DNA of 64,000 bases, taken from positions 1,017-65,016 of the forward strand of contig JAGOGO010000002.1 of assembly GCA_017996625.1 (NCBI GenBank), read 5' to 3'. Made by a program: the position numbers and the translations under genes. The stretch is from Deltaproteobacteria bacterium. GTDB taxonomy: Bacteria; Desulfobacterota; WTBG01; JAGOGO01. The notes beneath the pieces are model-generated. The model saw only the letters and a list, made by a program, of their open reading frames with translations. It made no database searches and was not told the DNA's origin. Below, in pieces: positions 36,210 to 64,000 of the stretch. Position 1 is the first letter of the stretch. The number at the start of each line of letters is the position of its first letter.

Positions 36210-36214
36210 AACCA

Positions 36215-38540: not shown

Positions 38541-38598
38541 CACGATTGAGGATTGACAAAAGCATCCAGAAAATCTATAAACTACCGTACAAATAATA

Positions 38599-40011: not shown

Positions 40012-40233
40012 TGATTGGTCTCCGAACTCTGAAAAATGCCCAGGTTCTCTGAACCTCTTCAAAATCCAGGTGGCGTCCTGACCTTGAGCTGTTGCCACAA
40101 CATCGGCAGCATCACCATCTCAGTGAACGTTTCGCAGAAGGTAGCAACGGTTAGATGCTGTTATATTCCGTGCGTCGTTCATAGCAATCTTAGCCTATCT
40201 TCATCACATAAAATATAACATTTCGGCGATACG

Positions 40234-47521: not shown

Positions 47522-47794
47522 TTCAATATCTCTTCGTTTCCATCTTTACGTGAAGAGGAATTGGGGTGGTTCATCCCATTGCTGCATTAAGTATGGTGTC
47601 CTCAGAATTTCCGTATCACAAGAATTTTCCCCACTACTCTTAGAGCTTCGTTTTTGGCAGCAAAACAGGGCTTCTAAAGCGATGTTTGAGCCTCTTATTC
47701 AGCAAAGCTAATGTAATTTCAATTCCTTATCCAGGTCCGACCCGGGAACCGACGCGTCTCAAGTCCGGGCCTGACCCCGGACAGTTTTCCGAGG

Positions 47795-48000
47795 CAATAA
47801 ACAGAGTCAGCCCAGGACATGGGACATCTCTGCATGAACGGATCAGCTTCTCTGAGTGATGCCAGTCGTTCTTCACTATCCATCAATACACAGCTGTGTA
47901 GCCTTTAGCTATTCTTCGTTCTCGCTTTTGCCCTCTGTTTCGTGGAGGTAGTCAGCACCTACAATGTCCCCTGTCCGTGCCTGGGCCCGTTGCCGTTCCT
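47795..48000. repeat. ~200 bp repeat, copy B (preceded at 47588-47615 by an IS21-like tail fragment cattaagtatggtgtcctcagaatttcc)
   Basis: Aligns with 43348-43560 across the whole length with scattered substitutions. Confidence 0.75.
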
Positions 48001-48131
48001 CATTTTTGCGAATTTGTACGCTTTCAAAAAAAATATTTTACTTAATAAGAGCAGAGTATTCACCTGCGAAAGGATATTTATTTTTTAGGGGGCTAAGAAA
48101 TAAATCAAGAGTAGTCTACTCAACAGCGCTA

Positions 48132-49576: not shown

Positions 49577-52500
49577 TTATAGGTAATCCTGCCACGTCAC
49601 AATCGACGATTGTGGATCAAGAAAGAAATCAGTATCCTTGAATAGGAAGTAAGGCCAATCCTTTGAAATACTTGACTCAGCTAGTCTATATCCTGCTTGG
49701 TCGTACCAGTCAATGTGATGTTTCTCCTTTACGGGGAGAATGCGCAGTTTCGGTCCCGTGTACGTTGAGAAATCATCGACAAGTGTAACGGGAATTTTCC
49801 GTTGAGTCGGATAGCGTTCGTCTTCTATCGTAGCTCTAGCATCCTTTCTTTCGAATATCCATTTATCAACTAATCTGGGTTCCAGAACAGCATCGCTGAT
49901 TTCGCCGACGTTGTTCCAATACTCCTTGGCTATAACTGCAGCATCTGGGCGCGTGTAGGCTTCTTTCCTTGTCAGGAGATGTGTAGCAATAGGATCAAGC
50001 ATACCCCAGCTTATCATATCCTTATACCATAACACCGACCACGGCAATTCGCATCGCCGCCAGCGTTCCAGAAAATCTCCATCGCCGCCATCATGCTCAA
50101 GAATAGACCCAATGGCTGATCCAAGAGCCCAATTCAATCCATAGATAAAATACTTAGATGCAAAGTCATACCAACGAGAAACACTCTTGCCTGATGGAAT
50201 GCGATCGGATCTATAAGGTGCCATCCACCAGGTCAACACATCTTGCCAAGCCACAGTGGACTTCCCGCTTGTTAGATCACGAACTCCAAAGGCTTCAATC
50301 TGGCTAATCGCCTCAACTAAGGAGGTGATATTGTTGATCCGCTCGGAATCGTTCCAAGTGACGAAGTCCACTGCCTTCGTCATGATGGTCTTGATATTAG
50401 AGAGCTTGGAGATCAGCACCTTTCCATCTCTCGGCGCCAAACCTGTATGATATAAAGCGCGGCGATATTGTTTTTCAGGATAAATGAACTCTGTTATTGC
50501 TTTTCCTCGCTGCAGAAATATCTTTTCTGCAATTGAGTCACTGAAACCCATTTTACAATGAAATGCTAGTGTGTTATGCCACAGCGACCGAAGTGAATCC
50601 TCCATATTTGCTTCGGGATTCAAGCCTTCAAGTTCGACAATACTAGTGAGCAATTGCTGATCAAGCGTATCTAAAGATCTTAAGAGATTCCCTTCCTCGC
50701 CTTGCGCCGAAGAAAATGCAGTCCGTTCAAGCCAAGCGATAAACTGATTGATATCCTTGCTCCCGGATAGGCGCGACCAGAGATTCTCAATCCGAATTGT
50801 CAAAGCATACAACGGAGAGTTTAGTCTTTTGACGTTTTTGACTTGCCGCTCGGTCATGGCGCGGATGATCTTCTCATATGCCTCTTGAGAAATCTTCTGA
50901 GCTTCTCCAAGGGCATTTGTGGAAAGTAGTACAAGTGTTTTACCCTCTGTAGAAACTCCTGGCCTTCCAGCCCGCCCCGCTACGTTAATTATCTCCCTTG
51001 AGGTCACAGGTTGTCTTGAATTCACAGGCTGTCGAAAGCGTAAGAGTGATGGTATCAGAATTGTCTCAAAAGGAAGATTCACGCCTTCAGACAGAGTTGA
51101 GGTTGCAATTACGATATTGATTACATGCTCTTCAATAAGTTCGATGAGAAGGCGAGACATCACCGGCGGCATCTTGCCATGATGAAGGACTATACCCTTC
51201 TGAAGGAGACGGTGTTCACGGGAAATCGGACCGAAGTAATCAGCGCATGAAGCCAAACAGCGAGATAAAAGGGCTTGATCCCTGCTGCGCTTTGGCTGCC
51301 CGAAGAAATCTGGATATTGGATGTCTGCCCAATCATCTGTGAGTAACCTTATGAATGTTTCAGCATATTGTTCAGGGTGCTCGGTTACTGATATAAGAAC
51401 CGAGTGTCTTTTCCCGTCCAAAGGTCGAGCGAAGTGCATGGCCGCCCATAATAGATGTGCCCGCATGCGCTTCTCAACACTATCATCTTTCTTAAAAGCC
51501 CTTATTACCGGCGGATGCGGGGGAAAAGGGTTAGCAACGTAGGGGGCACTTTCCTCCTCATTAACTAATAGACGTTGTCCATCGAGCACATCATATCGAA
51601 TAGTGGTCACTCCATTGTCACTACACCACAGTTGGCCAAAAAGTTGACGAGTACTTCTATAATCTGGGGCAATAGCGCGAGATTCATTCTTTCCTGTCAT
51701 CCAAGCTGACAGAACATCCCGGATATCTGTTGCTACAGCAGACAACGCTACGAATGTGGTATGTGGAGAACATAAGGTTTTCAGCCGAGAGACAAGGCCC
51801 TCCAACCGTAGAGAGCGGCTTTGAGCTGTGGCCAGAGCTTCGTAATCCCCTGTGAATGCAACTGAATGGGCCTCATCAATAATAACGCATGATAGCTTTT
51901 TCAGCATTGTTTGACCTAACAAGCGAAGAAGAGCATCTGCTTTTTCATGCGTCGAAATTAATACGATAGGTTGTTCTGCAATATTGGTTAGGTCCGATGG
52001 GCCAAAATCATTGCCACCATAAAGTGACGTAACTACGACGCTCGTTGCTCTGATGTTGCGCAAAGAGCGTGCAATGTTCGATTCAACCTCACTCGAAAGT
52101 GCTTTTGAGGGAGTGAGATAGAGAATCAATGGGGCGTCATTCTTGATGTGTCGATCTTCATGTCCAAACAAATGACGTAGTATCACCAATTCCGCGACAC
52201 GCGTCTTACCTGAGCCAGTAGGTGTGCAAAGAGCAAAAGAACCTTCTGATGCAATGCCAGCAATACCAGCTTGCTGAGATGGCCAAGTTAGTATCTTTCT
52301 TTCCAGAAATGCGACTCTCGCATAACGGTTTAATGCCTGACGACCGTCATCGGATACCTTTTCTGTGAGAGGTAAGAGCGATGTCCAAAGAGCCTCGTTC
52401 TTAAACTCTCGTGCGATTGCAGCGAAAATAACAGAAAGCAACCAAGAGAACCTATCACTATCGTAACGTAATGCGCTGGCGACCTTCTCAAGAGTCTTTA

Positions 52501-53152
52501 TAGCCGAGTCGATCCGCACCTCATCTCCCCACCTCATCCATGCTGTAAGTACTCCGATCGCGCGTAATAGCTGATTGAGAATCACAATACCTGTCTGATG
52601 TTTTGTTGAATCGCCTTTACCACCATGTCGCCAAAAGTCTAGCAAAAGTCGTTGTGCTCGAAAAAAATCCGCACGAAGAAGAGCTGTAAGAATCTGTGAT
52701 GTCTTATCCGGTAGAGTATGTTCAGACAATATTCCTAAAGCTCTCGCGGGGTACCCAGCTAATTGGTAAATGGATGCAGCAAGGAGTACCACTGGAATTG
52801 GGAAATCGACAGGTGAACTTGTCGCCGCCCACTCAAATATCTCTGCAGCGCGGCGCAGGTACCTACGGCTATCGGACATATCTGGAGCAGCCATTCCAGC
52901 AATCAAAAGCTTTTCACCCTCGGTTAAACGAACAATGAGTTCATCATTTGTCCATGAAGGCAGTCCCTTCGCACCAGCGCGGAGCCTTGTATGTTGGGCA
53001 TAGAGGCGTGCAATACCCCGACTGAGCGATGGTCCGGCCACGCGCTCTGCAAAGTCGTGAATCAAGTCCAAGCTGCCTTCAGCCATATATTTCATTTGGA
53101 GCCATCCATCCTCTCGTAGAGTGAAGAGATGAGGATATGAACGCCAGGGCAA
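49577..53152 (-). CDS. large SF2 DExH helicase, HamB-like (Hachiman-type helicase partner of DUF1837)
   Basis: Motif I CTPTGSGKT, II VIIDEAHS, VI VAGRAGRPG. 1191 aa with long N- and C-terminal extensions. The start overlaps the upstream DUF1837-like gene by 61 bp. The helicase call is secure; the Hachiman assignment is inferred from gene pairing. Confidence 0.5.
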   Translation of the reverse strand: MPWRSYPHLFTLREDGWLQMKYMAEGSLDLIHDFAERVAGPSLSRGIARLYAQHTRLRAGAKGLPSWTNDELIVRLTEGEKLLIAGMAAPDMSDSRRYLRRAAEIFEWAATSSPVDFPIPVVLLAASIYQLAGYPARALGILSEHTLPDKTSQILTALLRADFFRAQRLLLDFWRHGGKGDSTKHQTGIVILNQLLRAIGVLTAWMRWGDEVRIDSAIKTLEKVASALRYDSDRFSWLLSVIFAAIAREFKNEALWTSLLPLTEKVSDDGRQALNRYARVAFLERKILTWPSQQAGIAGIASEGSFALCTPTGSGKTRVAELVILRHLFGHEDRHIKNDAPLILYLTPSKALSSEVESNIARSLRNIRATSVVVTSLYGGNDFGPSDLTNIAEQPIVLISTHEKADALLRLLGQTMLKKLSCVIIDEAHSVAFTGDYEALATAQSRSLRLEGLVSRLKTLCSPHTTFVALSAVATDIRDVLSAWMTGKNESRAIAPDYRSTRQLFGQLWCSDNGVTTIRYDVLDGQRLLVNEEESAPYVANPFPPHPPVIRAFKKDDSVEKRMRAHLLWAAMHFARPLDGKRHSVLISVTEHPEQYAETFIRLLTDDWADIQYPDFFGQPKRSRDQALLSRCLASCADYFGPISREHRLLQKGIVLHHGKMPPVMSRLLIELIEEHVINIVIATSTLSEGVNLPFETILIPSLLRFRQPVNSRQPVTSREIINVAGRAGRPGVSTEGKTLVLLSTNALGEAQKISQEAYEKIIRAMTERQVKNVKRLNSPLYALTIRIENLWSRLSGSKDINQFIAWLERTAFSSAQGEEGNLLRSLDTLDQQLLTSIVELEGLNPEANMEDSLRSLWHNTLAFHCKMGFSDSIAEKIFLQRGKAITEFIYPEKQYRRALYHTGLAPRDGKVLISKLSNIKTIMTKAVDFVTWNDSERINNITSLVEAISQIEAFGVRDLTSGKSTVAWQDVLTWWMAPYRSDRIPSGKSVSRWYDFASKYFIYGLNWALGSAIGSILEHDGGDGDFLERWRRCELPWSVLWYKDMISWGMLDPIATHLLTRKEAYTRPDAAVIAKEYWNNVGEISDAVLEPRLVDKWIFERKDARATIEDERYPTQRKIPVTLVDDFSTYTGPKLRILPVKEKHHIDWYDQAGYRLAESSISKDWPYFLFKDTDFFLDPQSSIVTWQDYL

Positions 53153-54012
53153 TGGAATTCGACTGATGTTAGTTCACGCATCCCAGTATATCGTTCGTGG
53201 GGAGAGTCTGTTGGAATCCATGTCTTCCTAAGCTTGGGGCAATCACCACAAACATACACACTCAAGTCGCAACGAACGGAAAGCTTCCTCGATGCATATT
53301 GCCACCAATATTTCTGCAATGCGGAGATCCAAGTTCGGCTGTACTTGTCATCACGATAATCCTTCAACGCATCGATCAGTCGGAGCAAGTCAATTGGTCG
53401 AGTCACGGCCTGACTGAGTTTCTCATGATTATCGGATATCAGTTGAGACGAATGATCTCTGGTACACTTCGCTTCGCATGCCAGCCAAGCTATGATATCC
53501 CCATCCTTATTTAGCGCAAAAGCTAGGCCGTCATCGCCTGTCCGCCCTATTACTTGCCTCGACCACTCATCAGTTTGTTTCATGTATTCGAGCTGCTGGA
53601 AAGCAATTACATGAGTGCGAAAAAGGTAGACCGGAACTTTCCATTCGTATTCACCATCTCCTGCATAGTATTCGGCGACAATTCCGGCGATAATCTCGCC
53701 AAAGAAAGCTTGAAGAGCGATATTGCCCAGCTTGTGTGGATATCCAAAGGCCGGGTCGATTTCAGTATCATAATGGAGAGGATGTAGTGAGTTTTCAAGT
53801 GGTGCCCGCAAAGATTGGCGAGCACCATCATGGGCGTGGTCAATATATGTGAAAAGTTCATCTAGTTCGGGTTGAGTAACGGTCCGTTTAGCGCGAATAA
53901 GCAGATGGCAATAGCGAGGGGATTTTTTGTTATGAGTCTTCTCTACCGTTAGCCAAGAATTTAGCAGTCTCAGTCGCGGATGTTCAGCAGAAACTATTGG
54001 GTCGGATTGCAT
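53092..54012 (-). CDS. HamA-like (DUF1837-like) PD-(D/E)xK nuclease-fold protein
   Basis: LNKDGDIIAWLACEAKCT gives a D...EAK nuclease motif. 306 aa, translationally coupled to the helicase. Confidence 0.4.
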   Translation of the reverse strand: MQSDPIVSAEHPRLRLLNSWLTVEKTHNKKSPRYCHLLIRAKRTVTQPELDELFTYIDHAHDGARQSLRAPLENSLHPLHYDTEIDPAFGYPHKLGNIALQAFFGEIIAGIVAEYYAGDGEYEWKVPVYLFRTHVIAFQQLEYMKQTDEWSRQVIGRTGDDGLAFALNKDGDIIAWLACEAKCTRDHSSQLISDNHEKLSQAVTRPIDLLRLIDALKDYRDDKYSRTWISALQKYWWQYASRKLSVRCDLSVYVCGDCPKLRKTWIPTDSPHERYTGMRELTSVEFHCPGVHILISSLYERMDGSK

Positions 54013-54490
54013 ATAACTATGCCCCGTATCTAAATGAGCATTTCTCGAACTTATGTCATATCTTGGGGAGGGGTGGGGATGTTATTCACTGGATTAACTA
54101 ACGACCATGCGACTCAGATTAGGGGCAATCGCTGCGGCCGATATCCCACGCTGTAGTATGGTTTCCGCTACCCCCATCCCCTGCTTCACAAGCTTCTGAG
54201 TACACTACCCTCGAAAACACAGTTTGTGTACCCAGTGAACAACGTCCCCGGCTAGTTCCCTATCATTAAGCAGGAATTGCTCTCGAACCGCAGTGGAAAT
54301 TATTCGGGATGAATGCGGTATGTGCAAAATCATACGCTCCTGTCAGCCTGCGGTATACTGCTGTTGGCCGCATATGATAAGAATTTACGGAACAGGTAAG
54401 CAAGCTAATACAAGTCATCCGATATCTTGTGTGATCACGTTTAACGCCCTCTCATTCAATGTCCCTATTTTCACTCGATTGCTCGGTAAT

Positions 54491-54832
54491 CTATGGTTCC
54501 TTCAGAGACAAGACTTCTATCTCACCTGATAGGGTATCAAAAAGGAAATGATCAACCTTGTCGAGTTCTCCCGGTATTAACATCGGCGCCCTTTTCAACA
54601 TTGCCACCCACGAGGAGTCTGCTACTTTGAAGGTGTTTCCAAGTCTCTTGAGTCTAAAGTATTTTTTAAATCGAAACGCTACACAATGCTTAAACAAAAC
54701 CAGCCACTTTTTGTTTTTACTGATGTCCTCAAGGCATATAGAAAGATGATTGTCGGATTTTAAAATAATCTCGTGGCTGGCAAGATTATCGATACGAGAC
54801 AAAGGCGTCTTCCACACTTCTATTGAATCCAT
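54491..54832 (-). CDS. hypothetical 113 aa protein downstream of retron RT
   Basis: ORF only, 175 bp from the RT stop. Confidence 0.25.
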   Translation of the reverse strand: MDSIEVWKTPLSRIDNLASHEIILKSDNHLSICLEDISKNKKWLVLFKHCVAFRFKKYFRLKRLGNTFKVADSSWVAMLKRAPMLIPGELDKVDHFLFDTLSGEIEVLSLKEP

Positions 54833-55007
54833 ACCGATTTTTTATTTCTGAGACTGTTAGATCATGATGATACAGCAGTCTTCTGCCTCGCTGAATTTAC
54901 AGAGTCTTACTCGGTGAAGTATAGACCCTGCTTAGGGTCATTCTGAGCTGGCAGGAAAAATATACTATGCGTGCTGTAGCTCGCCCTAGACCACCTCTTG
55001 TGCGTTC

Positions 55008-55934
55008 CTAGATGTTGCTCAATACTCGTTTGCCGTATTTTTGTTCCATCCGTTCGACAAAATTCGGTTCGATAGAGCGGGCAAATGCAAGCATGCCGCG
55101 GAGTGAACTTTTTTCCTGGGGAGTGAGATGTCCCGTTATAAGATGATGTATCTGCGCTCTAATACGGCGCTTCTTTTCTCGGCCAAGTGACACACGGCCT
55201 GCATTAGAGAGAACTAATCCGGTTACCATCCGACGATGAGCTTTTGACCCGAAAATTGTTTTCTTCTGATTAATTTGCAGCTTAGGAAATGGCAGTTGTT
55301 GTATCACTTGAAGAACCCTATTGAGAACTTCTGATCTAGCTGCCTTCTCCATCATGGAAAAAGTCATATCATCGGCATACCTGGTATATGTGATACTACG
55401 TTGGCAACAATAGCTTTCAATTTCACTATCAAACCTATGCATGATGGCGTTGGACAAATAAGGAGAGGATGGAGCACCGACTGAAAGCTGAAGGTTGTGA
55501 ATTCGTTTAGGATACCAAAAAAGAATCCTTACAAGCAACTGTAGATCGAGCTCATCGAGGTCCAGGTTGTTGAGTTCTCTTATGTACTGAATAAAATCAT
55601 CTCCCTTGATTGAAGGAAAGAAATCCACGAAATCAAGCTTCAGCAAATAAGGCTTGGCGACATGAAGTTCAGAGTTGTTTAATATATTCTTTGCCTTTAT
55701 ATAGGCAGTTGCGGACGGATGAATTGGCAATCGTGGAAATAAATTCTCAATAACCCAGTACTGGAGCCTTTTAACCTCCTTAGCTGGTTGGGCTATGGTG
55801 CGCATACCAGTTCCAGATCGCTTTGGTACCTCATAGACCTTATAGCGATAAGGTGCACTTCTAATTAAGTATTCCAAACGTTCCTTTGGCAGAAGTAAAT
55901 CTTTAGACAATTTGGCTAAGAGTGAGACTACCAT
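55008..55934 (-). CDS. retron-type reverse transcriptase
   Basis: All retron RT signatures are present: PKRSGTGMRTIAQPAKEVKRLQYWV, LKLDFVDFFPSI, SVGAPSSPYLSNAIM, YTRYADDMTFS, VTGLVL. 308 aa. Confidence 0.85.
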   Translation of the reverse strand: MVVSLLAKLSKDLLLPKERLEYLIRSAPYRYKVYEVPKRSGTGMRTIAQPAKEVKRLQYWVIENLFPRLPIHPSATAYIKAKNILNNSELHVAKPYLLKLDFVDFFPSIKGDDFIQYIRELNNLDLDELDLQLLVRILFWYPKRIHNLQLSVGAPSSPYLSNAIMHRFDSEIESYCCQRSITYTRYADDMTFSMMEKAARSEVLNRVLQVIQQLPFPKLQINQKKTIFGSKAHRRMVTGLVLSNAGRVSLGREKKRRIRAQIHHLITGHLTPQEKSSLRGMLAFARSIEPNFVERMEQKYGKRVLSNI

Positions 55935-55947
55935 AAAAAAGTCCGAT

Positions 55948-56916
55948 CTAACTCGTTTGCCTAAAATGTGAAATCAATGCCTTGTATTTTTGCTTATTGT
56001 GGTGGATGTAATGATCATTAAACATTATTGTCCAACGATCCCGATCCATGCCACGAACGTTTGCCGTCTGTCTATAGGCAATCGCGAGCCGAGGTTCGTG
56101 CGCGCAAGTGCGGTAATAGACATTGTGGCCGTATTGCTTTTTTTCAATCAGCTTCAAGGATTTCAGTAAACTCAAATATTTGCTTAGTTGATATCGTTCA
56201 TACCGTATATCCAGCCATTCGAGAAATTTGTTTAATTCATCTAAAGATGCGAGCTGCACAGTCTCCAGCAGATCGAGCATTAGTAGCATGACATGCCCTA
56301 ACTTATCTCTGCTGAACGATTCGGACTTTGGCAATTCCAAAAGAATTTTCATTACTGTCTCTGCGAGGTCTTCCACATCAAAGAAATCATCCTGCGTGAC
56401 CGACTCGTCATTATTATCCTTGTTCCTCCAAGTATATACTGTAACTGGGCTATCTTTGCCGTTCTTTTCTGCAATCTTCATAATATGCAGGATGGGTCCT
56501 CGCCAAATAAAAGATTTCTTTTCCCAATGATCTTTGTGCATGACTACCAGAAGTCTTTCCCGAATAGTATCCAGTACTGCAAACGAACCGAGCTCAGCAA
56601 TTGAGCCAGGGCTCTCCGAGAAAATTATTGTCAAAGCAGATAGCTCAGCCAAGTCTCTTTCAAAGTCAAGAAGGTCGGTGTATTCTGAGTGGTAAAAATA
56701 GTCGAAAACATCCTCTGCTAATACAATGTCCTGGCGATACATGTATTTGCTCTGACAGATATATTTGCAAAAGGCATCGCGACAAGAGTGCGGGGCTTTG
56801 TGGGAGTCTGTGATTTCACCACCACACAGGAAAACGAAGGAAGGCAACTTGACGACACGGCTCTTCGTCAAGTCAATTGATGATATCCATTCTCTGTATA
56901 TTGGATCTATTTCCAA
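55948..56916 (-). CDS. retron accessory/effector protein with N-terminal nucleoside 2-deoxyribosyltransferase-like (NDT) fold
   Basis: VFLCGGEI... and ESPGSIAELGSFAVL resemble the NDT family D.G[TS].FE.G.A catalytic-Glu motif. 322 aa with a TTG start. It lies 14 bp upstream of the RT, the Sen2-like arrangement msr/msd - effector - RT. Confidence 0.45.
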   Translation of the reverse strand: MEIDPIYREWISSIDLTKSRVVKLPSFVFLCGGEITDSHKAPHSCRDAFCKYICQSKYMYRQDIVLAEDVFDYFYHSEYTDLLDFERDLAELSALTIIFSESPGSIAELGSFAVLDTIRERLLVVMHKDHWEKKSFIWRGPILHIMKIAEKNGKDSPVTVYTWRNKDNNDESVTQDDFFDVEDLAETVMKILLELPKSESFSRDKLGHVMLLMLDLLETVQLASLDELNKFLEWLDIRYERYQLSKYLSLLKSLKLIEKKQYGHNVYYRTCAHEPRLAIAYRQTANVRGMDRDRWTIMFNDHYIHHNKQKYKALISHFRQTS

Positions 56917-56920
56917 TAGA

Positions 56921-57085
56921 ATGCTCTTTACTTAGAGGCAGGCATGGTGGCCTTCCTCGGCTTACCGACGGTGAGCCGAGGAAGGCCACCATGCCGGTAA
57001 GTGTTATCAATCCGTAAAAGTCCAGCGGAACGCCGGACAAAGCCTAAAAACTGCTTATCCTCTAAAGAGCAAGTTCTATCCTTGC
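56921..57085 (-). ncRNA. candidate retron msr-msd non-coding RNA
   Basis: Read on the minus strand. A TTGACA -35-like hexamer sits at about 57100. It is followed by a1 GCUCUUUAGAGG (57070-57059). The msr hairpin is GUCCGGCG-UUC-CGCUGGAC. A perfect 22 bp stem GGCAUGGUGGCCUUCCUCGGCU / AGCCGAGGAAGGCCACCAUGCC with an 11 nt loop (56943-56997) is the proposed msd. An imperfect a2 CCUCUAA(GUA)AAGAGC (56938-56923) abuts the effector start. Confidence 0.4.
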
Positions 57086-57197
57086 AAGATTTCAGATGCT
57101 TGTCAATGGCAAACTTAATATTCAGTGTTTGATTTATTATATTCCCGCAACAAATATCCATGAGGTAGGATGTTTCTTGCTAAGCATAAAACCCTTC

Positions 57198-59972
57198 TTA
57201 TTTAACCGGTACCCTCCCGCTCAAACCCAAATCTCCGAGTATGAGCTTGAGGTCTGACTCGAAGCTCTGTGCCTGGTTCTTCTCAACCGTTACGGAAAAA
57301 CAGATACTGATCTTCAAGTCCGATCCGCTGCGCAGCTTCGGGAGAATCTTTGTCCCCAGTCGATTCCAGACTTCAGGCGGAATCTCACCGGAAATCTGGA
57401 ATGTGCGGGTTCCTGCACCAGGTATAACCTCCGGCTCGGTTCCTTCTCCTGACTGAGTGCCGATCACATCTATAACTTCTGGTCGAGGTTCCGGACGCTG
57501 GGTGGGCTCAGGTTCATGAGCCGGCCCTGAGCTTGACTTTAACGCCTTGGCCTTCGATTTCAGAAGAAGAAATACTCCCTGATCGAAAATGATTTCTTCT
57601 GACGGGACTGCCTCCTGAAACCAGACCCGATCATAGGAGCCGTCTGTCTTCTGACCTGAGGCGAATCCAAAGTCCCCCTTATCCACCCAAGCAGCTATTC
57701 TGCTGCGCAGGACAGTGTCTGGATCAAGGAGGCGCGTCAGTGATCCATTAAGGAAGCTTTGCCGGAGACTGGTCAGAGGCCAGGCACCGGAGTCTCTCAA
57801 GGCAGGGGGCCAATTGCGTTCAACATAGCTGGCTCCTACTGATTCATTCAGCAAAGCCTGCGACTTGAGCGCAGTGATAACCCGGCCGCACAGAGTCTCT
57901 CCACTGCTGGAGTGCCCAGCTCCGAGGTCAATAGTCTTTAATCCGTTCGGCTCCTTGCTGTCAGCAATGACTACAAAGCGATAGCCTCCCCATACTTCGT
58001 CGTGGGCTGCTTCTTCGCCTTCAGTCGCCTTTGTCCGCACCTCCAATCTATCTTCAGGACTGAATTCTCCTCCCAGTGTCTTCTCTCTGATTTCCTTATC
58101 TACTCGTTTCCAGGCCAACCATAGTTCAATCTTGTCACGCAAATCGCGGCCGGGCTTTTTCACACACCACACAAGCGAGCCCGGATAGAGCCTGGGTGAC
58201 TTTCCCCTTTGCTTGGTCCATTCGGCAATTTGATCAACAAGGCTCCCCTTACCCGTCCATTCGCATGCAGGGTCAAGCACCACAAGCGTCAGCTTGGGTG
58301 TATCTTGAATCTCGGTGCCGTCGGATGGAAACTGGACAAGGGGAATGGTTGCTCCACGCTCAAACTCTTTTTGAACAACAGCGCGCATGGCCGGTTTGAC
58401 ATCGTTCTCATCATCCAGGGACGCGCGTCGGTCGTTCACAACCTTTTTCATCGTCGGCTGGTAGCCGATTCTGAATCCGTCGGAACCGATGCGTCGAATG
58501 AAATATGATTTGTCTTCGAGAGCGAAAGCGGCATTGTCCACCGACGTGGTATCGATCTCCGGCTCACCAAGGGCAAAGCGCAATTCGGGCAGGTGCGCCA
58601 CTTTATCCACCTGGCCACCGGAAGACTCAAAGAGAATCGCAGTGGCTACCCGTCGATGAATATCGCGCAATGCCGCTTTTGAGTCAGCATCGAGGGCGCG
58701 GGCATGAGAATGATCGCCGGCAATATCAGCATCAATAGCGGCCTCAAGGCGTGATTCCCCAAGTTGGCCGAGAACAACACTGCGGAATTCCGCCACCTCC
58801 AAAGGAGCCGATCCAAGAGTGATAAGCGCCTCGTTGCGCGCGTCATAGAAATTAGTGCGGCTAGCCCAGGAAATCCACTGGGCAAGCATGGCAAGGGTTC
58901 CACGCGTCTGCTGGTACTGCGGCAATGCCTGCCATTTTCTCTGGAAAACCGACAGGGTCGCGGGGTGAAATGGATAACACGTCTCAAATCGCTGCTGCAA
59001 ATATTCTTTGGCTTTTGCTTCCGTGGCTGCGGTGTCAACGGCCATCCATTCAGGCGGAAGCTGGGCACGGCGTTGGAAGCACCATTCGGCGTAAGTCTTC
59101 GCCACAGTCTTGCGAACTCGGTCTTTCCCTATGTCCTCAAACAACCGCCGGCGAATCACTTCGCTTATTTCAGTTTCGTCGTTTGCGATGAGATCCTTGG
59201 CCACACGTCGAACCACCTTTGTAATCTTATTCTGCCATGCCATGTCCCAGTCGGTCATTTCCACCTGGCTTCGCGGCAAACTTATGACTGCTGCTCCGTG
59301 AGTAGTACCCGTAGTTGCAACCGTCAAGTTCTGAATAAAGGAATGGAACTGATCAGCCATATCTCTATGCCGATTCAAGAAGTTCAGTACTTCATCGAAG
59401 AGAATGAGCACCGGGGCTTCAGCAGCCTTAAAAATCCGATCAAGCGCTTCGGTACCTGGGGGCGTATTCCTTGCCGATGTTCCGAGCTCCCTGACTCCCT
59501 TATCACCCGCAAGCTGCCGAGCAATATCAATCCACGGTGTCTCGCGACCTTCTTGCGGATCCCAAGCATTGCCGACAAATGCAGCGACTTTCGCATGCGG
59601 CACTGCGCTTATTGTTGCCTCATATACAAGATCAGCGACACCAGTATACTCGGCTGCCTTTTCACCGCTACTCATCAAATGGTAAAGAGCTGCAAGTGTG
59701 TGCGTCTTGCCGCCACCGAACTGAGTAATAAGGGTCATGACGGGTGCCGTATTCGCTGTCTCGCCCGAAAGCCGACGCATCACCATGCCGGTGTGCTCTC
59801 TGAGTGCCCGAGTGAAGCAGGTACGAGCAAAGAATTGCTTCGGATCGCGATAATCTTCCGGAGCAGTTTTGGCAATCACCTGTTCCAGATGAATGGCAAA
59901 CTCGTCCGGGTTGAACGAACGCCCTTGTCTGACTTCTTTACGAGGGGTAGTGCTTTTGTACCACGGGTCCAT
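57198..59972 (-). CDS. DUF499-family P-loop ATPase (COG1483-like), 924 aa
   Basis: Walker A TQFGGGKTHTLAALYHL, Walker B PVLILFDEVLN. The large size and the pairing with a DUF1156 methyltransferase match the DUF499 context. The DUF499 assignment itself is from memory of the family. Confidence 0.55.
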   Translation of the reverse strand: MDPWYKSTTPRKEVRQGRSFNPDEFAIHLEQVIAKTAPEDYRDPKQFFARTCFTRALREHTGMVMRRLSGETANTAPVMTLITQFGGGKTHTLAALYHLMSSGEKAAEYTGVADLVYEATISAVPHAKVAAFVGNAWDPQEGRETPWIDIARQLAGDKGVRELGTSARNTPPGTEALDRIFKAAEAPVLILFDEVLNFLNRHRDMADQFHSFIQNLTVATTGTTHGAAVISLPRSQVEMTDWDMAWQNKITKVVRRVAKDLIANDETEISEVIRRRLFEDIGKDRVRKTVAKTYAEWCFQRRAQLPPEWMAVDTAATEAKAKEYLQQRFETCYPFHPATLSVFQRKWQALPQYQQTRGTLAMLAQWISWASRTNFYDARNEALITLGSAPLEVAEFRSVVLGQLGESRLEAAIDADIAGDHSHARALDADSKAALRDIHRRVATAILFESSGGQVDKVAHLPELRFALGEPEIDTTSVDNAAFALEDKSYFIRRIGSDGFRIGYQPTMKKVVNDRRASLDDENDVKPAMRAVVQKEFERGATIPLVQFPSDGTEIQDTPKLTLVVLDPACEWTGKGSLVDQIAEWTKQRGKSPRLYPGSLVWCVKKPGRDLRDKIELWLAWKRVDKEIREKTLGGEFSPEDRLEVRTKATEGEEAAHDEVWGGYRFVVIADSKEPNGLKTIDLGAGHSSSGETLCGRVITALKSQALLNESVGASYVERNWPPALRDSGAWPLTSLRQSFLNGSLTRLLDPDTVLRSRIAAWVDKGDFGFASGQKTDGSYDRVWFQEAVPSEEIIFDQGVFLLLKSKAKALKSSSGPAHEPEPTQRPEPRPEVIDVIGTQSGEGTEPEVIPGAGTRTFQISGEIPPEVWNRLGTKILPKLRSGSDLKISICFSVTVEKNQAQSFESDLKLILGDLGLSGRVPVK

Positions 59973-60082: not shown

Positions 60083-61252
60083 CTATTTTAATTCTCGCCG
60101 CTTGATATACTCTGCGAATAAAGGATCGGCGATGCGATACTGACCGCGTCCGATTCGCTCAACTAATCCTTTTTCCGTAAGCCGCTTAAGCACTTCCGCA
60201 GCGTTCTTTACCTTTGCGCTGCGCTTCTCAAGGGTTCGCGGGCTCAGAACGGCATCATTTGTAGCCAGCACTTTGAGCGCTGTCATTTCTTGAACACTGG
60301 CACGCCCCACCATCCCTTCAAATTGCGCATCAGCCAACGCCAGAAGTGTATGGTAAAGTGCGGTTTCCCAATTTTCCATGGAAACCCTGCCTTTGACTTG
60401 CTGATCAAAAAGGGCTTCGCAGAGTGCCTGTACTTCGAAAACATGCCCACGAGTGATATCGAAAATATTTTCTTTCACACCTTTCTCAAAAACGACTCCC
60501 GATTCTCGCAGGGAATCATCGATAAGCCTGAAGGTCTCGGTCTTCGCAAAAGAGCCCAAAGGCCTGCGAGGCATAAACAATCGCCCGAGAGGATGATCCC
60601 GTACCAGATACGGTTTCCATGCTTGCTCGATTGAACTAATGACCATGAGGATTTTTGTTTGTCCAAGAATACGCTCATCAGTAAGCACATTCCTCAAGAG
60701 GGTAAGCTGCTGTCCCTCTGTCGAGAGATTGTGGACATCGTCAATCAATATGACCAATGAGCGCGCTCCATGCCTTTCGGCGTGTTCATGCAGCCGCATC
60801 AAGCCATCGCGCAGTACTAACTGCGGGTCTTGATTCGCAGAGGCATTTCGCCACTGCAACTGAAATCCAAAGCCGAGCACACTCGCACCTGCACCTTCAA
60901 CACGCTTTGCAAAAGGCTCCTTCTTCTCTGGCAGAATAGGCAAATCAGACGCCGTCATATCGAGCACATGGCGAGCGAAATCCGTGAGGCCTTCCTGAGC
61001 GGCAAATGCCCGGGTACTGAAAAGGAGAGCCCACGCTCCCTCGGTTCGAGCGACCAACTTCATCTGCCGGAGAAGAACCGTCTTTCCGATGCCCCATGTC
61101 CCCGTGATAACGTAGTGTTGAAATCTGCCATGGAAAGCGTTGCTCAACCGTTGTTTGAAGAACGCTACTTCCTCATCCCGGCCAATGAAAACTTTTGGGT
61201 CCATGCCGGATCTTGCTGTAAACGGATTGACAAGCATCTTCTCTCCTCTCAT
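60083..61252 (-). CDS. AAA ATPase of the archaeal-ATPase (PF01637-like) type with C-terminal wHTH
   Basis: Walker A VITGTWGIGKTVLLRQ, Walker B LVILIDDVHNL. The C-terminus LTEKGLVERIGRGQYRIADPLF is a wHTH. Confidence 0.55.
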   Translation of the reverse strand: MRGEKMLVNPFTARSGMDPKVFIGRDEEVAFFKQRLSNAFHGRFQHYVITGTWGIGKTVLLRQMKLVARTEGAWALLFSTRAFAAQEGLTDFARHVLDMTASDLPILPEKKEPFAKRVEGAGASVLGFGFQLQWRNASANQDPQLVLRDGLMRLHEHAERHGARSLVILIDDVHNLSTEGQQLTLLRNVLTDERILGQTKILMVISSIEQAWKPYLVRDHPLGRLFMPRRPLGSFAKTETFRLIDDSLRESGVVFEKGVKENIFDITRGHVFEVQALCEALFDQQVKGRVSMENWETALYHTLLALADAQFEGMVGRASVQEMTALKVLATNDAVLSPRTLEKRSAKVKNAAEVLKRLTEKGLVERIGRGQYRIADPLFAEYIKRRELK

Positions 61253-61258: not shown

Positions 61259-63999
61259 TCACCTAGGCACAGCCAGCAGCATTGCATCGAGCAATCGTTT
61301 CTCCTCACTCCCCTTCGGATAGAGCGCCGAGAGGGCATTAGCCAAACGGAGAAAATCCGGGCTGCGCTCCTGCTCGGCCTTAACCAGCGCCCGTAAGGCA
61401 TTGGTCTGTCCGCCAGACTGCAGCAGCATCGCAGCATGCACGCGATCAAGCGTGGTAATATTTCGCTGGTTCTGAAAATCGGCAGCAGCCGGGTCCAAGA
61501 CAACTCCTTTCCGCTGCCCTCGAACGCGAAGCTTCGGTGCCTGCTCTTTCTCCAATTCAGGAAAGAGAACACGCTGCAGGTTTTTCATAGGCTGCTTCTC
61601 GATGATATCAGCAGAGGCTCTAGCGCCTTCTTCGCCAAAAAGTTGCTTGCTGCGGTCGGCAATGCCCAAGAGCCTGATCACGCCCTTCTCAGTCTTGATT
61701 ATGCGGTTCTCCCACTTGGGAAGATCAATCCCGAGCGGCTGCGCAAAGCGGCGGACTACATCGAAGACGAGACTATATCCTTTAGCCTTCCCTTTCGGAG
61801 TAGGTTCTTCATCATCCTCGTCAAGCTCTTCTTCCTCTTCAACATCTTGGCTTTTACCTTTGCTCTTTTCATTTTTGTCTTCAGCATTGGTGGCCTGCAA
61901 CGTCCATAGGAATAAGGCTGTTAAACGCGCATCCTCTTCCAATACACCTGCCATACCATTTCGGGCACGAGCTTCCTCAGTGCCGAGAATCTGTTCCAGT
62001 GCCGTGCGGCCCACTACCTCCCAGACCTTCTCCAGGTACTCAGCAAGCTTGACCTCGCGACCTTCGGCAGTCTCCACCTTTGAGTACCGGCTGAAGATTT
62101 CGAGAGCCGGTCCGATACAGGCGAACACCAGATCCGCCCCTCGAATCCCTTCGCCCTGCAAGCACTCCATCCAGTCCCCTACCCGATTTGGAAGTTCACG
62201 AAGCACCTCCGACCAATCGCCCACGGATGCGTCCTCTGGACGTGGACGACAGACGAGGTGGACACTGGTGGCGAGGGCAGCTGTGTCGCGTGCCAGTAGT
62301 CGAGCTCCCCTCTCTGTTGCAATGGGCCAGGAACCTGTGATTGCCCAACCGCCGCGGACGATGCCTGAAAGAAGTGCTTCCCATCCTTCGGTTGTCTTGT
62401 GCGCAAACACTACAGAGGCAATCCCATCCTCCTTCAGTACTCGCCGTCCTTCTGAGAAAGCCTGAGCCATGGCGTCTTCGTAGTACTGTCTGTCTTTGAC
62501 ACGCCCCGTGGGGTCACGATCCTTTTGAGATTGGATGACCTCGGCAGCTTTGGGAGTGAGGGGGTTGGATGCCTCATAAGGGTCTCGCAGTAGCGGGTCT
62601 CTCGCCATCATCCGTTTCAGCCACACGAAGAAGAAATCGGAGAGGTCAGAATAAGGGATTGCGTCATAGTACGGCGGATCAGTGAACCAAACTGTAGCCG
62701 AGTCATTTGGCAACGGATGATTTGTGGCGTCTGCCAGCTGCGTTTGTCCCATCTTGGGTATCCCACTTGCGATCTGCGAAACAGCTCCCACCAGTTCGTC
62801 AATTGCGTTTCCCACCCCCCCGCGAACTCAGATAGCGGATAGAACTCCGGAAAATCCCATGACATAGGCAGCGCATGTCTGCCGAACGCCCCAGCGACTG
62901 TCTGACTGCCTTTGTGCCAAAAGGCGAAAGCATTGCAATGTCGGATGGTTTTGCCAAGCACGAGAGACGGAAGTCCGCTTTTCCCCACTATTACTCCAAG
63001 CAGTGTGTGTACCAACGCCTGTCGAAGTGAAAATAGGTCTCCAAATACCCGTGCCCCATAGCGTGTGACCGCGGAAAGACCACGAGCATTTGCAGAAGGG
63101 CGCTGTGGATCAATGGGTTCATCTGGCAATGGGCATGGGCCTTTCTTGCCCGCCTTTTCCCATTGGTGAACAAGAAGATTCATCCGCTGATGTGCCTTCC
63201 ACACCGCTTGATAGTCTTGTGTTGTGGGTTGACGGTACTTTCGCTCGCGGCTATTATTGCACATCGTAACAACCGCTAGCAGTCTCGCCCCACCAATACG
63301 GTTGCCATTTGTATCAAAAATCACGTCTGGCCGGCCACCTTGCTCGGTGATTTGCTCACGAACGCGTTCTGATGAAAGGACAGCACCACAGGCAGGGCAC
63401 GTCGCCCTGCCATCCTTTATCGTTCTTTGCGCGATCTCTTGATGTTGGCCGCGTGCTGACGCCGCTATCTCGAACTCTATCTCGGGTCTTTTGCCATGCT
63501 TACGAATGACCGTGTGTCGAAGGCCACACTGCCAGCCACTGCTTTGGCAGAAGAGAAATGACCGCGCAAGCGGGATTTCCGCTCCGCAGTTGGGGGACTC
63601 GCATTTGACCGTTCTCGCCCAAAGGTAGGCTATCGGCGCGGCCCCGTCAGGGTCCTTGGGATAAAACTCAGCGAGTTCCTTCTCAGCCTGTTTCTTGATC
63701 TCACCGCCGACCCGGCGCAGTTCCTCGGCAAGCTCTGGTCCATGGCGTGGAATATCTTCCAGCAGGACTTTGAGAATGAGGCAGGCTACTGGATTGAGAT
63801 CGCTGGCAAATGCTTCACAGCCCAGTCTCAGAGCTTCCAGTGGGATCGATCCACCACCTGCAAAAGGGTCAACAACGAGCGGCGGTTCCTCACCATGCGC
63901 AGCCTTTACTAGCGTTCGTCCTGCTTCGGCATACATTGGGTTGCATGACAAATCCCAGTTTGCGAAGTCGCCTATAAACTCAAGCAATGCTTTCCTCAA
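61259..63999 (-). pseudogene. DUF1156-type Zn-ribbon DNA methyltransferase (COG1743-like) split by a -1 frameshift at a G7 homopolymer. N-part 62617..63999 (motif I, runs off window), C-part 61259..62815 (DPPY)
   Basis: N-part has VVDPFAGGGSIPLEA (FxGxG SAM motif) and CxxC pairs (CESPNCG, CPACG). C-part has WFTDPPYYD (motif IV). The two ORFs overlap by 199 bp in different frames. The frame change maps exactly to GGGGGGG at 62815-62821 (minus strand). One additional G would give the continuous product ...YPLSEFAGGVGNAIDELV.... Confidence 0.6.
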
Positions 64000-64000
64000 G

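What the first reader, a model, noticed from the sequence alone, without database searches (positions are those of the whole stretch)
55008..57130. Complete retron (ncRNA - NDT-like effector - RT) wedged between a DUF499/DUF1156 module and a Hachiman-like pair
The RT carries every retron-specific block (for example PKRSGTGMRT, YTRYADDMTFS, VTGLVL). The gene 14 bp upstream has an NDT-like motif ESPGSIAELGSFA, which is the effector class of Eco1/Sen2-type retrons. Its position is unusual. The upstream DUF1156-ATPase-DUF499 genes and the downstream HamA/HamB-like genes are all co-directional with short gaps. The retron may therefore be an insertion into a larger operon, or it may be a functional partner. 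Retron RTs cooperating with helicase/nuclease or methyltransferase/ATPase modules would be new.
Basis: partly seen in the sequence, partly recalled or inferred. Interest (0 to 1): 0.8.

Follow-up and report, generated by a model that had tools for sequence, protein, structure and literature searches.

The report
Ordinary Sen2-type retron in defence island
This is a complete, standard anti-phage retron of the well-studied Salmonella St85/Sen2 type that sits next to other defence genes in a defence island, with no sign that it works together with them.

Summary
On the minus strand, 57106-55008 carries a promoter-like site, a retron ncRNA (57070-56923), a 322-aa NDT-like effector (56916-55948) and a 308-aa RT (55934-55008).

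- **Classification.** Both proteins pass NCBI's curated cut-offs for the retron St85 family. PADLOC assigns them to RT_II-A and NDT_II-A. The effector model superposes on the solved Retron-Eco1 effector. The ncRNA has a1/a2 repeats, an msr hairpin and a 27-bp msd hairpin, and shows compensatory changes across 16 relatives. This is a type II-A1 retron (Sen2-like).
- **Neighbours.** They are as described: an Hma-like DUF1156/DUF499 module upstream and a divergent HamA/HamB pair downstream.
- **Cooperation idea not supported.**
  - None of 62 loci with related retrons has an Hma or Hachiman homologue within 10 kb.
  - Six Hma relatives and three HamAB relatives have no retron.
  - The retron block has its own conserved -35 box and a lower GC content (40-46% against 52-55% and 45-49%).
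  - HamA starts 995 nt after the RT stop.

It is best read as an autonomous cassette in a defence island. It is a new member of a known kind and of low interest. msDNA production and defence activity remain untested.

The parts
57078..57106 (-). Promoter-like site of the retron. It has a perfect -35 TTGACA (57106-57101), a 17-nt spacer and a weak -10 AAGGAT (57083-57078). This places the transcription start at about the first base of a1.
   Evidence: Read from the sequence. A TTGAC box lies 34-38 nt upstream of a1 in 13 of 17 loci, window included. The consensus scan did not list it because the -10 matches only 3 of 6. Function is inferred.
56923..57070 (-). Retron ncRNA (msr-msd). Its parts are a1 57070-57063 (GCTCTTTA), the candidate branching G at 57062, the msr hairpin 57038-57020 (GTCCGGCG-TTC-CGCTGGAC), the msd hairpin 56995-56941 (27 bp, 1 mismatch) and a2 56930-56923 (TAAAGAGC).
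   Evidence: MFE -88.4 kcal/mol, z = -9.5, 0 of 200 shuffles as good. Inverted repeats I1 and I4. Weak Rfam msr match of 22.2 bits at 57002-57070, below the gathering score of 52. In a 16-sequence alignment, 16 of 35 pairs show compensatory changes. 93.2% of cells are paired, against 80.3% shuffled (0 of 500) and 37-47% when slid.
55948..56916 (-). Retron effector, 322 aa. [quoted passage not shown] The start codon is TTG, 6 nt after a2.
   Evidence: PADLOC NDT_II-A 7.9e-73. NCBIfam STM3845_fam 225 bits against a cut-off of 100. Homologues align from residue 1, and the invariant residues are listed. The Ec86 effector 7v9x_C matches at E 3.5e-12, and the residue mutated in the E106A structure 8qbl aligns with E108. 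AF2 pLDDT is 89.9. Foldseek top hits are 8qbk_E, 7xjg_J and 8qbl_E, followed by wHTH regulators.
55008..55934 (-). Retron reverse transcriptase, 308 aa, with NAxxH (SNAIMH), YADD and VTG motifs.
   Evidence: Pfam RVT_1 5e-18. PADLOC RT_II-A 7e-120 and RT_I-A 1e-102. NCBIfam retron_St85_RT 355 bits against a cut-off of 235. The best PDB hits are retron RTs: Ec78/Ec83 class at 213-242 bits and Ec86 at 166 bits.
54491..54832 (-). Context, not shown to belong to the retron. A 113-aa ORF of unknown function lies in the same low-GC block as the retron.
   Evidence: No Pfam, PADLOC or NCBIfam hit. It is a real small protein family, with 17 representatives at E<=1e-10. It is absent from all 62 related retron loci.
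53092..54012 (-). Context: a divergent HamA-like PD-(D/E)xK nuclease candidate, 306 aa (invariant D160/D161, E180, K182).
   Evidence: No Pfam hit in it or in 112 homologues. The AF2 model (pLDDT 90.7) matches only HamA, 8vx9_A: E 6.8e-7, probability 1.0, TM 0.57/0.65.
49577..53095 (-). Context: a HamB-like helicase, 1172 aa counted from the ATG that overlaps the HamA stop (ATGA).
   Evidence: PADLOC HamB 4e-68. PDB HamB 8vx9_B at E 8e-25 over residues 236-1011. The start overlap was read, and gene calls in L001 agree.
57198..59972 (-). Context: HmaC / DUF499 ATPase, 924 aa, the last gene of the Hma-like module.
   Evidence: PADLOC HmaC 2.3e-93 and Pfam DUF499. Homologues are 74-78% identical across phyla. 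It is the terminal gene in six related loci.
60083..61252 (-). Context: an AAA_16 ATPase with a C-terminal AbiEi-like wHTH, lying in the variable slot between hmaB and hmaC.
   Evidence: Pfam and PADLOC. In relatives the slot holds other genes: DUF8426, PDDEXK_3, MNT/HEPN or SLFN_AlbA_2.
61259..64000 (-). Context: HmaB / DUF1156 methyltransferase. In the window it is split by a 1-nt frameshift in a G run at about 62815-62821, and it runs off the window end.
   Evidence: PADLOC HmaB 4.6e-41. It is an intact 1004-aa gene in L001-L002. The window has G7 where L001-L004 have G8, and this is the only difference in 18,053 nt.

Best explanation
This is an autonomous type II-A1 retron of the St85/Sen2 family. 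It works as a tripartite toxin-antitoxin abortive-infection system and sits as one cassette among several in a defence island.

Inferred mechanism, by homology with Retron-Sen2 and Retron-Eco1:
1. Transcription starts at the retron's own promoter, at about 57070, and yields ncRNA-effector-RT on one transcript.
2. The RT recognises the msr hairpin. It primes from the 2'-OH of the G that follows a1 (about 57062) and copies the msd hairpin into a multicopy single-stranded DNA of roughly 70-85 nt.
3. The RT-msDNA complex binds the NDT-like/winged-helix effector and keeps it inactive.
4. Phage functions that modify, degrade or sequester the msDNA release or activate the effector.
5. The effector's N-glycosidase domain (catalytic Glu, E108 here) attacks NAD(P)+ or another nucleotide substrate. 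This stops growth of the infected cell.

Shown here: the three components are present, intact, conserved and in the canonical order. The ncRNA structure is supported by covariation. The cassette occurs elsewhere without these neighbours.

Inferred: msDNA synthesis, toxin neutralisation, the trigger and the effector's substrate.
For: **Family assignment**
- PADLOC RT_II-A 7e-120 and NDT_II-A 7.9e-73.
- NCBIfam retron_St85_RT 355 bits (cut-off 235) and STM3845_fam 225 bits (cut-off 100).
- Homologues are named 'retron St85 family effector protein' in annotated records.

**RT and subtype**
- The RT is closer to the Ec78/Ec83 RTs than to the Ec86 RT.
- This fits RT clade 1 and type II-A1 of Mestre et al. 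2020 (PMC7736814).

**Effector**
- The sequence matches the Retron-Eco1 effector, and the active-site Glu is conserved.
- The model matches it over about 290-300 columns.
- 19 residues are invariant among 42 homologues.

**ncRNA**
- z = -9.5.
- 16 of 35 pairs show compensatory changes, and 74 double-change cells are seen against 23 expected.

**Autonomy**
- The effector is followed directly by the RT in 61 of 62 related loci from many phyla.
- None of those loci has a homologue of HmaB, AAA16, HmaC, orf113, HamA or HamB within 10 kb.
- The flanks of ten relatives differ from one another: IS transposases, R-M genes and housekeeping genes.
- A -35 box is conserved 34-38 nt upstream of a1.
- GC steps from 52-55% to about 44% at 57200 and rises back to about 48% near 54400.

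**Mechanistic precedent**
- Sen2 is a tripartite TA system with the msDNA as sensor (10.1101/2020.06.22.160168 and 10.1101/2020.06.22.160242).
- Eco1 forms NAD(P)+-hydrolysing filaments triggered by msDNA methylation, as summarised in PMC12673091.
Against: - No experimental data exist: msDNA, toxicity and phage defence are all untested.
- The Rfam msr model scores only 22.2 bits (gathering score 52).
- The -10 element is weak (3 of 6).
- No intrinsic terminator was found between hmaC and the ncRNA or after the RT, so read-through co-transcription with neighbours cannot be excluded.
- No flanking direct repeats or mobility gene mark how the cassette arrived.
- No 'empty-site' allele was found, because the metagenome scan failed.
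- The neighbourhood survey used tblastn with this locus's own proteins at E<=1e-5. It could miss very divergent Hachiman helicases.
Confidence: 0.9

Rival explanations
1. Composite system. The retron is a functional partner of the Hma-like methylase/ATPase module, of the HamAB pair, or of both. For example, it could be co-transcribed with them and act as a sensor or back-up layer, as an appended or embedded cassette.
For: - All genes from hmaB to hamB are co-directional.
- No terminator-like site separates them.
- The arrangement is identical in more than 10 metagenome contigs, though these are of the same organism.
- Defence cassettes are often nested in Hma, BREX and DISARM systems in the same orientation, which may allow co-regulation.
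- The HamAB-like pair is itself nested in SNF2/methylase operons elsewhere.
Against: - 0 of 62 related retron loci carry Hma or Hachiman homologues.
- 0 of 6 Hma relatives and 0 of 3 HamAB relatives carry a retron.
- The retron lies after the last hma gene, not between hma genes.
- It has its own conserved promoter box.
- GC content is discontinuous.
- The gap to hamA is 995 nt.
- No HmaA helicase was found in the available sequence.
- The methylase is frameshifted in the window.
Confidence: 0.05
2. Decayed or silent retron. The cassette is a remnant that no longer makes msDNA or no longer defends.
For: - The -10 element is weak.
- The effector uses a TTG start.
- The neighbouring methylase carries a frameshift, which could suggest a decaying island.
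- There are no expression data.
Against: - Both ORFs are full length and align end to end with homologues.
- All invariant effector residues and the RT motifs (YADD, NAxxH, VTG) are kept.
- The ncRNA helices are intact.
- The TTG start is shared with 6 close relatives, so it is a family trait and not a lesion.
- The sequence is 100% identical across independent samples.
Confidence: 0.04
3. The RT is not a retron RT but another defence or mobile RT (group II intron, DGR, Abi or DRT), and the upstream hairpin is incidental.
For: Only the generic Pfam RVT_1 hit is found in Pfam. The Rfam msr match is sub-threshold.
Against: - Group II intron RT scores 42 bits (cut-off 300), Drt2 40 (390), Drt3a 46 (200) and AbiA 26 (250), against retron_St85_RT 355 (235).
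- The top fourteen PDB sequence hits are retron RTs.
- The ncRNA covaries with relatives.
Confidence: 0.01

Closest known systems
Retron-Sen2 (St85) of Salmonella Typhimurium, type II-A1: msrmsd, RcaT/STM3845 and RT
   Same: - Same three components in the same order.
- The effector and the RT both pass NCBI's St85-family models.
- The effector has an NDT-like N-terminal domain and a DNA-binding C-terminal domain.
- The RT is of the clade shared with type I-A retrons.
- The expected mode of action is a tripartite toxin-antitoxin system in which the msDNA senses phage functions.
   Different: - The host is an uncultured Thermodesulfobacteriota/Deltaproteobacteria MAG (names).
- The msd sequence is unrelated.
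- The effector has a TTG start directly after a2.
- Triggers are unknown.
Retron-Eco1 (Ec86), type II-A3, with solved structures 7v9x, 7xjg and 8qbk-8qbm
   Same: - The effector has the same fold over its full length (Foldseek E 3e-10).
- It shares the motif ESPGS..ELG, with the catalytic Glu (E106 in Eco1, E108 here).
- The msr core resembles the Rfam msr consensus.
   Different: - Effector identity is only about 20% in the fold alignments (18-21%).
- The RT is more distant (166 bits, against 213-242 bits for the Ec78/Ec83-class RTs). This indicates a different RT clade, clade 9 against clade 1 in Mestre et al..
- Filament formation and Dcm triggering cannot be assumed.
Type I-A retrons (Eco7/Ec78, Eco4/Ec83)
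   Same: They have the closest solved RT sequences. According to Mestre et al., types I-A and II-A1 share one ncRNA-RT module.
   Different: [quoted passage not shown] No such genes are next to this RT.
Defence cassettes embedded in or adjacent to Hma systems (Payne et al. 2021, 2024)
   Same: An Hma-like hmaB/hmaC pair has a foreign ATPase gene in its variable slot, and other defence cassettes lie alongside in the same orientation.
   Different: The retron lies downstream of the last hma gene and not between hma genes. No HmaA was found. The main text of the 2024 preprint does not mention retrons (0 occurrences in it).

Membership tests
Retron (general) | Reverse transcriptase of the retron clades with the retron signatures (NAxxH, YADD, VTG) | tested here: met
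   Motifs read. PADLOC RT_II-A 7e-120. NCBIfam retron_St85_RT 355 bits against a cut-off of 235, with other RT classes far below their cut-offs. The top PDB hits are retron RTs.
Retron (general) | Adjacent same-strand ncRNA with a1/a2 inverted repeats, a G after a1, msr stem-loop(s) and an msd hairpin | tested here: met
   Fold z = -9.5. a1/a2 is 8-9 bp and the msd stem is 27 bp. Across 16 sequences, 16 of 35 pairs show compensatory changes. 93.2% of cells are paired, against 80.3% shuffled and 37-47% slid.
Retron (general) | Match to the Rfam msr family RF00170 at its gathering score | tested here: not met
   22.2 bits against a gathering score of 52, E = 1.7, at 57002-57070 on the minus strand. 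The position and strand are right but the score is sub-threshold. I give it little weight against the covariation evidence.
Retron (general) | Production of branched RNA-DNA msDNA | not testable with these tools
   This needs msDNA extraction and a gel or sequencing.
Type II-A1 retron (St85/Sen2 family) | [quoted passage not shown] | tested here: met
   PADLOC NDT_II-A 7.9e-73. STM3845_fam 225 bits against a cut-off of 100. Sequence match to the Ec86 effector. The AF2 model matches the Eco1 effector over its full length, and its C-terminus matches wHTH regulators.
Type II-A1 retron (St85/Sen2 family) | Gene order ncRNA, effector, RT | tested here: met
   Coordinates. The same order is found in 61 of 62 related loci. 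The ncRNA was found upstream in the 15 relatives aligned.
Type II-A1 retron (St85/Sen2 family) | RT in the clade shared with type I-A retrons (clade 1), not the Ec86 clade | tested here: met
   By best hits only, since no tree was built. PADLOC RT_II-A is first and RT_I-A second (398 and 341 bits). The PDB Ec78/Ec83-class RTs score 213-242 bits against 166 bits for Ec86. The classification is taken from PMC7736814.
Type II-A1 retron (St85/Sen2 family) | RT-msDNA neutralises the effector toxin, and the system gives phage defence | not testable with these tools
   Known for Sen2. Here it is only inferred.
   The 322-aa protein has no Pfam family at E<=0.01. This is expected, because Mestre et al. 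found these effectors only distantly related to NDTs. The relation is at the level of fold and motif, through the Eco1 effector.
Hachiman (HamA + HamB), neighbour | HamB helicase next to a HamA (DUF1837) nuclease, with the genes coupled | tested here: inconclusive
   HamB is met: PADLOC 4e-68 and 8vx9_B at E 8e-25. For HamA there is no DUF1837 or other Pfam hit in the protein or its 112 homologues. The predicted fold matches only HamA, 8vx9_A, at E 6.8e-7. The start and stop codons overlap as ATGA.
Hma (HmaA helicase, HmaB methylase, HmaC ATPase), neighbour | All three hma genes present | tested here: not met
   HmaB and HmaC are found. No HmaA/SNF2 helicase is in the window or in the 2.5 kb upstream of hmaB in L001, where a HerA-like gene and an IS200 transposase lie instead. 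HmaB is frameshifted in the window. Sequence beyond the contig end was not seen.
   0 of 62 retron relatives. 0 of 6 Hma relatives. 0 of 3 HamAB relatives.

The most novel reading that the evidence does not exclude
The retron and the HamAB-like pair may be cassettes appended in the same orientation to the 3' end of an Hma-like methylase/ATPase module and read through from its promoter. The island would then act as one co-regulated, layered defence unit, with the retron's msDNA sensing phage anti-restriction or methylation functions that defeat the neighbouring modification-based system. A smaller untested idea is that effector translation is gated by the ncRNA. Its Shine-Dalgarno-like AAAGAG lies inside a2, and a weak TTG start follows 6 nt later.
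Probability: 0.05. Interest if true: 0.5.

Novelty: new member of a known kind. Interest (0 to 1): 0.15.

Why it matters
It matters little beyond annotation. The locus adds an environmental (Thermodesulfobacteriota MAG) member to the St85/Sen2 retron family. Standard pipelines such as PGAP/NCBIfam and PADLOC would already name both proteins.

Three points are useful:
- Gene callers truncate the effector to 264 aa, but the true start is a TTG directly after the ncRNA.
- The well-defined ncRNA with a 27-bp msd stem could serve retron-editing work.
- The locus is a clean example that co-directional adjacency in a defence island is not evidence of cooperation.

If the cooperation reading were true, it would be a first case of a retron coupled to a modification or helicase system. 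The comparative data argue against that reading.

Tried and rejected
- **Rfam.** At gathering thresholds it found only two tRNAs in the window. The msr match is sub-threshold, and the 'miRNA' hits at 56940-56995 are just the long msd hairpin.
- **Pfam on the effector.** It was replaced by NCBIfam, PADLOC, PDB and fold evidence.
- **Empty-site search.** HmaC and HamA homologue contexts were used instead.
- **Flanking direct repeats or target-site duplications around 53800-57500.** Only one chance-level 15-nt pair inside the genes was found.
- **Terminator scan.** Nothing was found between the modules.
- **PDB sequence search for the HamA-like protein.** No meaningful hit. It was resolved only by structure prediction plus Foldseek.
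- **orf113.** No family in Pfam, PADLOC or NCBIfam. Its homologues are small proteins, plus repeats within PD40 beta-propeller proteins, which is uninformative.
- **HamB as the missing HmaA helicase.** Considered and rejected. In relatives HmaA is an upstream SNF2/NOV_C helicase. This protein's best PADLOC hits are HamB models.
- **Group II intron, DRT or Abi RT.** Considered and rejected.
Full report
**1. What is there**

All relevant genes are on the minus strand. In the direction of transcription the order is:

| Feature | Coordinates | Notes |
|---|---|---|
| DUF1156 methyltransferase (HmaB-like) | from beyond 64000 to 61259 | |
| AAA_16 ATPase | 61252-60083 | |
| DUF499 ATPase (HmaC) | 59972-57198 | PADLOC 2.3e-93 |
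| Non-coding stretch | 57197-56917 | 281 nt |
| 322-aa ORF | 56916-55948 | TTG start |
| 308-aa RT | 55934-55008 | follows a 13-nt gap |
| 113-aa ORF | 54832-54491 | |
| Non-coding stretch | 54490-54013 | 478 nt |
| HamA-like protein, 306 aa | 54012-53092 | |
| HamB-like helicase | 53095-49577 | ATG overlaps the HamA stop as ATGA |

Further on lie two small ORFs and an McrBC-like pair at 47039-43864.

**2. The retron proteins**

- The RT scores 7e-120 on PADLOC RT_II-A and 1.3e-102 on RT_I-A.
- It scores 355 bits on NCBIfam retron_St85_RT, whose curated cut-off is 235. Group II intron, Drt2, Drt3a and AbiA models score 26-46 bits, against cut-offs of 200-390.
- Its fourteen best PDB sequence matches are all retron RTs. 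The Ec78/Ec83 class (type I-A) scores 213-242 bits and Ec86 scores 166 bits.
- In the classification of Mestre et al. 2020, type II-A1 (Sen2/St85, Vch2, Eco3) shares RT clade 1 and an ncRNA type with type I-A. Ec86 is type II-A3 in clade 9 (PMC7736814). By best hits, this RT is therefore type II-A1. I did not build a tree.
- The 322-aa protein has no Pfam hit in the local copy. It scores 7.9e-73 on PADLOC NDT_II-A and 225 bits on NCBIfam STM3845_fam, 'retron St85 family effector protein', whose cut-off is 100.
- All 120 listed homologues carry the precomputed family PF28093/STM3845.
- A 42-sequence alignment shows 19 invariant residues, including E101, S102, G104, A107, E108 and G110 of the ESPGSIAELG motif. 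Homologues align from residue 1. The 264-aa gene call found in public data (P0001, starting at M59) is therefore a truncation.
- The protein aligns to the Retron-Ec86 effector at E 3.5e-12. The residue changed in the inactive E106A structure 8qbl aligns with E108.
- An AlphaFold2 model (pLDDT 89.9) has as its top three PDB matches the Retron-Eco1 effector chains 8qbk_E, 7xjg_J and 8qbl_E (E 3e-10 to 6e-9, probability 1.0, 289-303 aligned columns). Its C-terminal part matches winged-helix regulators.

**3. The ncRNA**

The features of the stretch 57070-56923 (minus strand) are:

| Feature | Coordinates | Sequence |
|---|---|---|
| a1 | 57070-57063 | GCTCTTTA |
| G aligned with the branching G of the Rfam msr consensus | 57062 | |
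| msr hairpin | 57038-57020 | |
| msd hairpin (27 bp) | 56995-56941 | |
| a2 | 56930-56923 | TAAAGAGC |

- It folds at -88.4 kcal/mol, z = -9.5 against dinucleotide shuffles.
- The Rfam msr model finds the right place and strand, but at only 22.2 bits (gathering score 52).
- Stronger evidence comes from relatives. The same architecture lies upstream of the effector gene in related loci.
- In a 16-sequence alignment, 16 of 35 consensus pairs show compensatory double changes, all but one of them in the msd stem.
- With controls, 93.2% of cells pair, against 80.3% in shuffles (0 of 500) and 37-47% when the partners are slid. There are 74 double-change cells against 23 expected.

**4. Autonomy versus partnership**

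*(a) Comparative, from the retron side.*
- A scan of one genome per species found 62 loci with a relative of the effector (26-52% identity; Desulfobacterales, Planctomycetota, Acidobacteriota, Gamma- and Alphaproteobacteria and others).
- 61 of them have the RT directly downstream. The exception ends at the contig edge.
- None has a tblastn match (E<=1e-5) to HmaB, the AAA_16 ATPase, HmaC, orf113, HamA or HamB within 10 kb.
- The immediate neighbours in ten of these loci are unrelated to one another. They include IS transposases, AAA_14/DUF4143 ATPases, type I and III R-M genes, LeuA, an EamA transporter, a kinase and a Macro-domain protein.

*(b) Comparative, from the neighbours' side.*
- HmaC is very conserved (74-78% identity across phyla).
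- In six loci it is the last gene of the module: SNF2/NOV_C helicase, variable genes, DUF1156, one variable slot, then DUF499. What follows differs each time and is never a retron or HamAB.
- The HamA-like/HamB-like pair occurs in three other loci directly after SNF2 and methylase genes, again without a retron.
- So Hma and this Hachiman-like pair are not linked to each other elsewhere either. There is no 'larger operon' for the retron to have split.

*(c) Local signals.*
- A perfect TTGACA lies at 57106-57101. A TTGAC box sits 34-38 nt upstream of a1 in 13 of 17 loci. This argues that the cassette brings its own promoter.
- GC falls from 52-55% in hmaC to about 44% at 57200. It stays at 40-46% through the retron and orf113, then rises to 45-49% from about 54400.

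*Caveats.*
- No terminator-like site separates the modules.
- The -10 element is weak.
- All contigs with the identical arrangement (L001-L010) come from the same organism, so they say nothing about conservation.

*Prior work.* Co-directional nesting of defence cassettes in Hma, BREX, DISARM and type I R-M systems is already described. 62.7% of Hma systems have embedded genes, and 96.7% of embedded genes are co-oriented with the flanking system (10.1101/2024.01.29.577857). Here the embedded gene in that sense is the AAA_16 ATPase between hmaB and hmaC. The retron lies after the last hma gene.

**5. Mechanism**

By homology, the RT would copy the msd hairpin into msDNA, primed from the G after a1. 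RT-msDNA would bind and silence the effector. Phage functions that methylate, degrade or sequester the msDNA would free the effector, and the cell would stop growing.

- This tripartite toxin-antitoxin logic was established for Retron-Sen2. There Dam methylation, RecE and a prophage RT were identified as triggers (10.1101/2020.06.22.160168 and 10.1101/2020.06.22.160242).
- For Retron-Eco1, the effector is an N-glycosidase that hydrolyses NAD(P)+ within RT-msDNA-effector filaments and is triggered by Dcm methylation of the msDNA (as summarised in PMC12673091).
- None of these steps is shown for the present locus.

**6. Verdict**

It is a new environmental member of a known, curated family (type II-A1, St85/Sen2), sitting in a defence island. 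The proposal that its position signals cooperation with Hma or Hachiman is not supported by any comparative evidence obtained here. I give that reading about 5%. Interest is low.

**7. Side observations**

- The window differs from contig L001 by a single base in 18,053 nt: a G7 run instead of G8 at about 62815-62821. This frameshifts the DUF1156 methylase. It could be an assembly error or phase variation.
- The 306-aa protein belongs to a family with no Pfam domain. Its model (pLDDT 90.7) matches only HamA.
- The effector start codon is TTG in the window and in six close relatives. It lies 3-10 nt after a2 in nearly all relatives, so the Shine-Dalgarno-like AAAGAG is part of the a1/a2 helix.

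Noticed in passing
window 62815-62821 (C run on the + strand, G run in the gene): The DUF1156/HmaB methylase is split into two overlapping ORFs by a single-base difference. The window has G7 where contigs L001-L004 have G8, and those contigs carry an intact 1004-aa gene. It is the only difference in 18,053 aligned bases. It could be a homopolymer assembly error or phase variation of the methylase.
   Followed up: yes
window 53092-54012 (-), with relatives in L077-L079: The HamA-like partner of the HamB-like helicase belongs to a family of more than 100 proteins with no Pfam domain (no DUF1837). Its AF2 model matches only HamA, 8vx9_A. In L077 and L079 the pair follows directly, in the same orientation, after an SNF2 helicase and a large methylase-like gene, and in L079 it lies between that gene and a DEAD/MZB helicase. 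This is a divergent Hachiman subtype that standard HMMs miss for HamA.
   Followed up: partly
window 56914-56930 (-), and the same position in L011-L036: The effector start codon lies 3-10 nt after the a2 repeat in nearly all relatives. It is TTG in the window and in six close relatives. The only Shine-Dalgarno-like sequence (AAAGAG) is part of a2 and would be base-paired with a1. This suggests that toxin translation is kept low or is gated by the ncRNA fold. Public gene calls start at M59 and miss 58 residues.
   Followed up: partly
window 60083-61252 (-): An AAA_16 ATPase with a C-terminal AbiEi-like winged helix sits in the slot between hmaB and hmaC. In relatives that slot holds unrelated small genes: DUF8426, PDDEXK_3, MNT/HEPN or SLFN_AlbA_2. 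It is an 'Hma-embedded' candidate defence gene in the sense of Payne et al. 2024.
   Followed up: partly
window 54491-54832 (-): The 113-aa ORF between the RT and HamA belongs to a real family of small proteins (17 representatives at E<=1e-10). Its C-terminal 40 residues resemble a repeat found in large PD40 beta-propeller proteins. It shares the low GC content of the retron but is absent from all related retron loci. Its function is unknown.
   Followed up: partly
L001 343-2439 (upstream of the window end): In the same organism, a 496-aa HerA-like/DUF87 ATPase and an IS200-type Y1 transposase lie upstream of hmaB, where relatives have the SNF2/NOV_C helicase HmaA (with other embedded genes, for example SIR2 and HerA in L074, in between). 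The Hma module here may be 5'-truncated.
   Followed up: partly
window 43864-47039 (-): This is an McrBC-like type IV restriction pair. The precomputed annotation of the 650-aa McrB-like protein includes DUF8426. The same domain occurs as a stand-alone gene in the hmaB-hmaC slot of L074 and L075.
   Followed up: no
window 32848-40098: A LexA gene (37524-38126), a Y-family polymerase/ImuB-like gene (36215-37381) and a DnaE2-like gene (32848-35829) form an SOS mutagenesis cassette. They are followed by tRNA-Leu(CAA) at 38600-38684 and a Fic-domain gene at 38986-40098. The tRNA may mark the edge of the defence island. No integrase was seen.
   Followed up: no
window 47102-49049 (-): Two uncharacterised genes lie between Hachiman and McrBC: a 305-aa protein with an N-terminal zinc ribbon in a 40% GC patch, and a 139-aa protein with a weak DUF6438 hit.
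   Followed up: no
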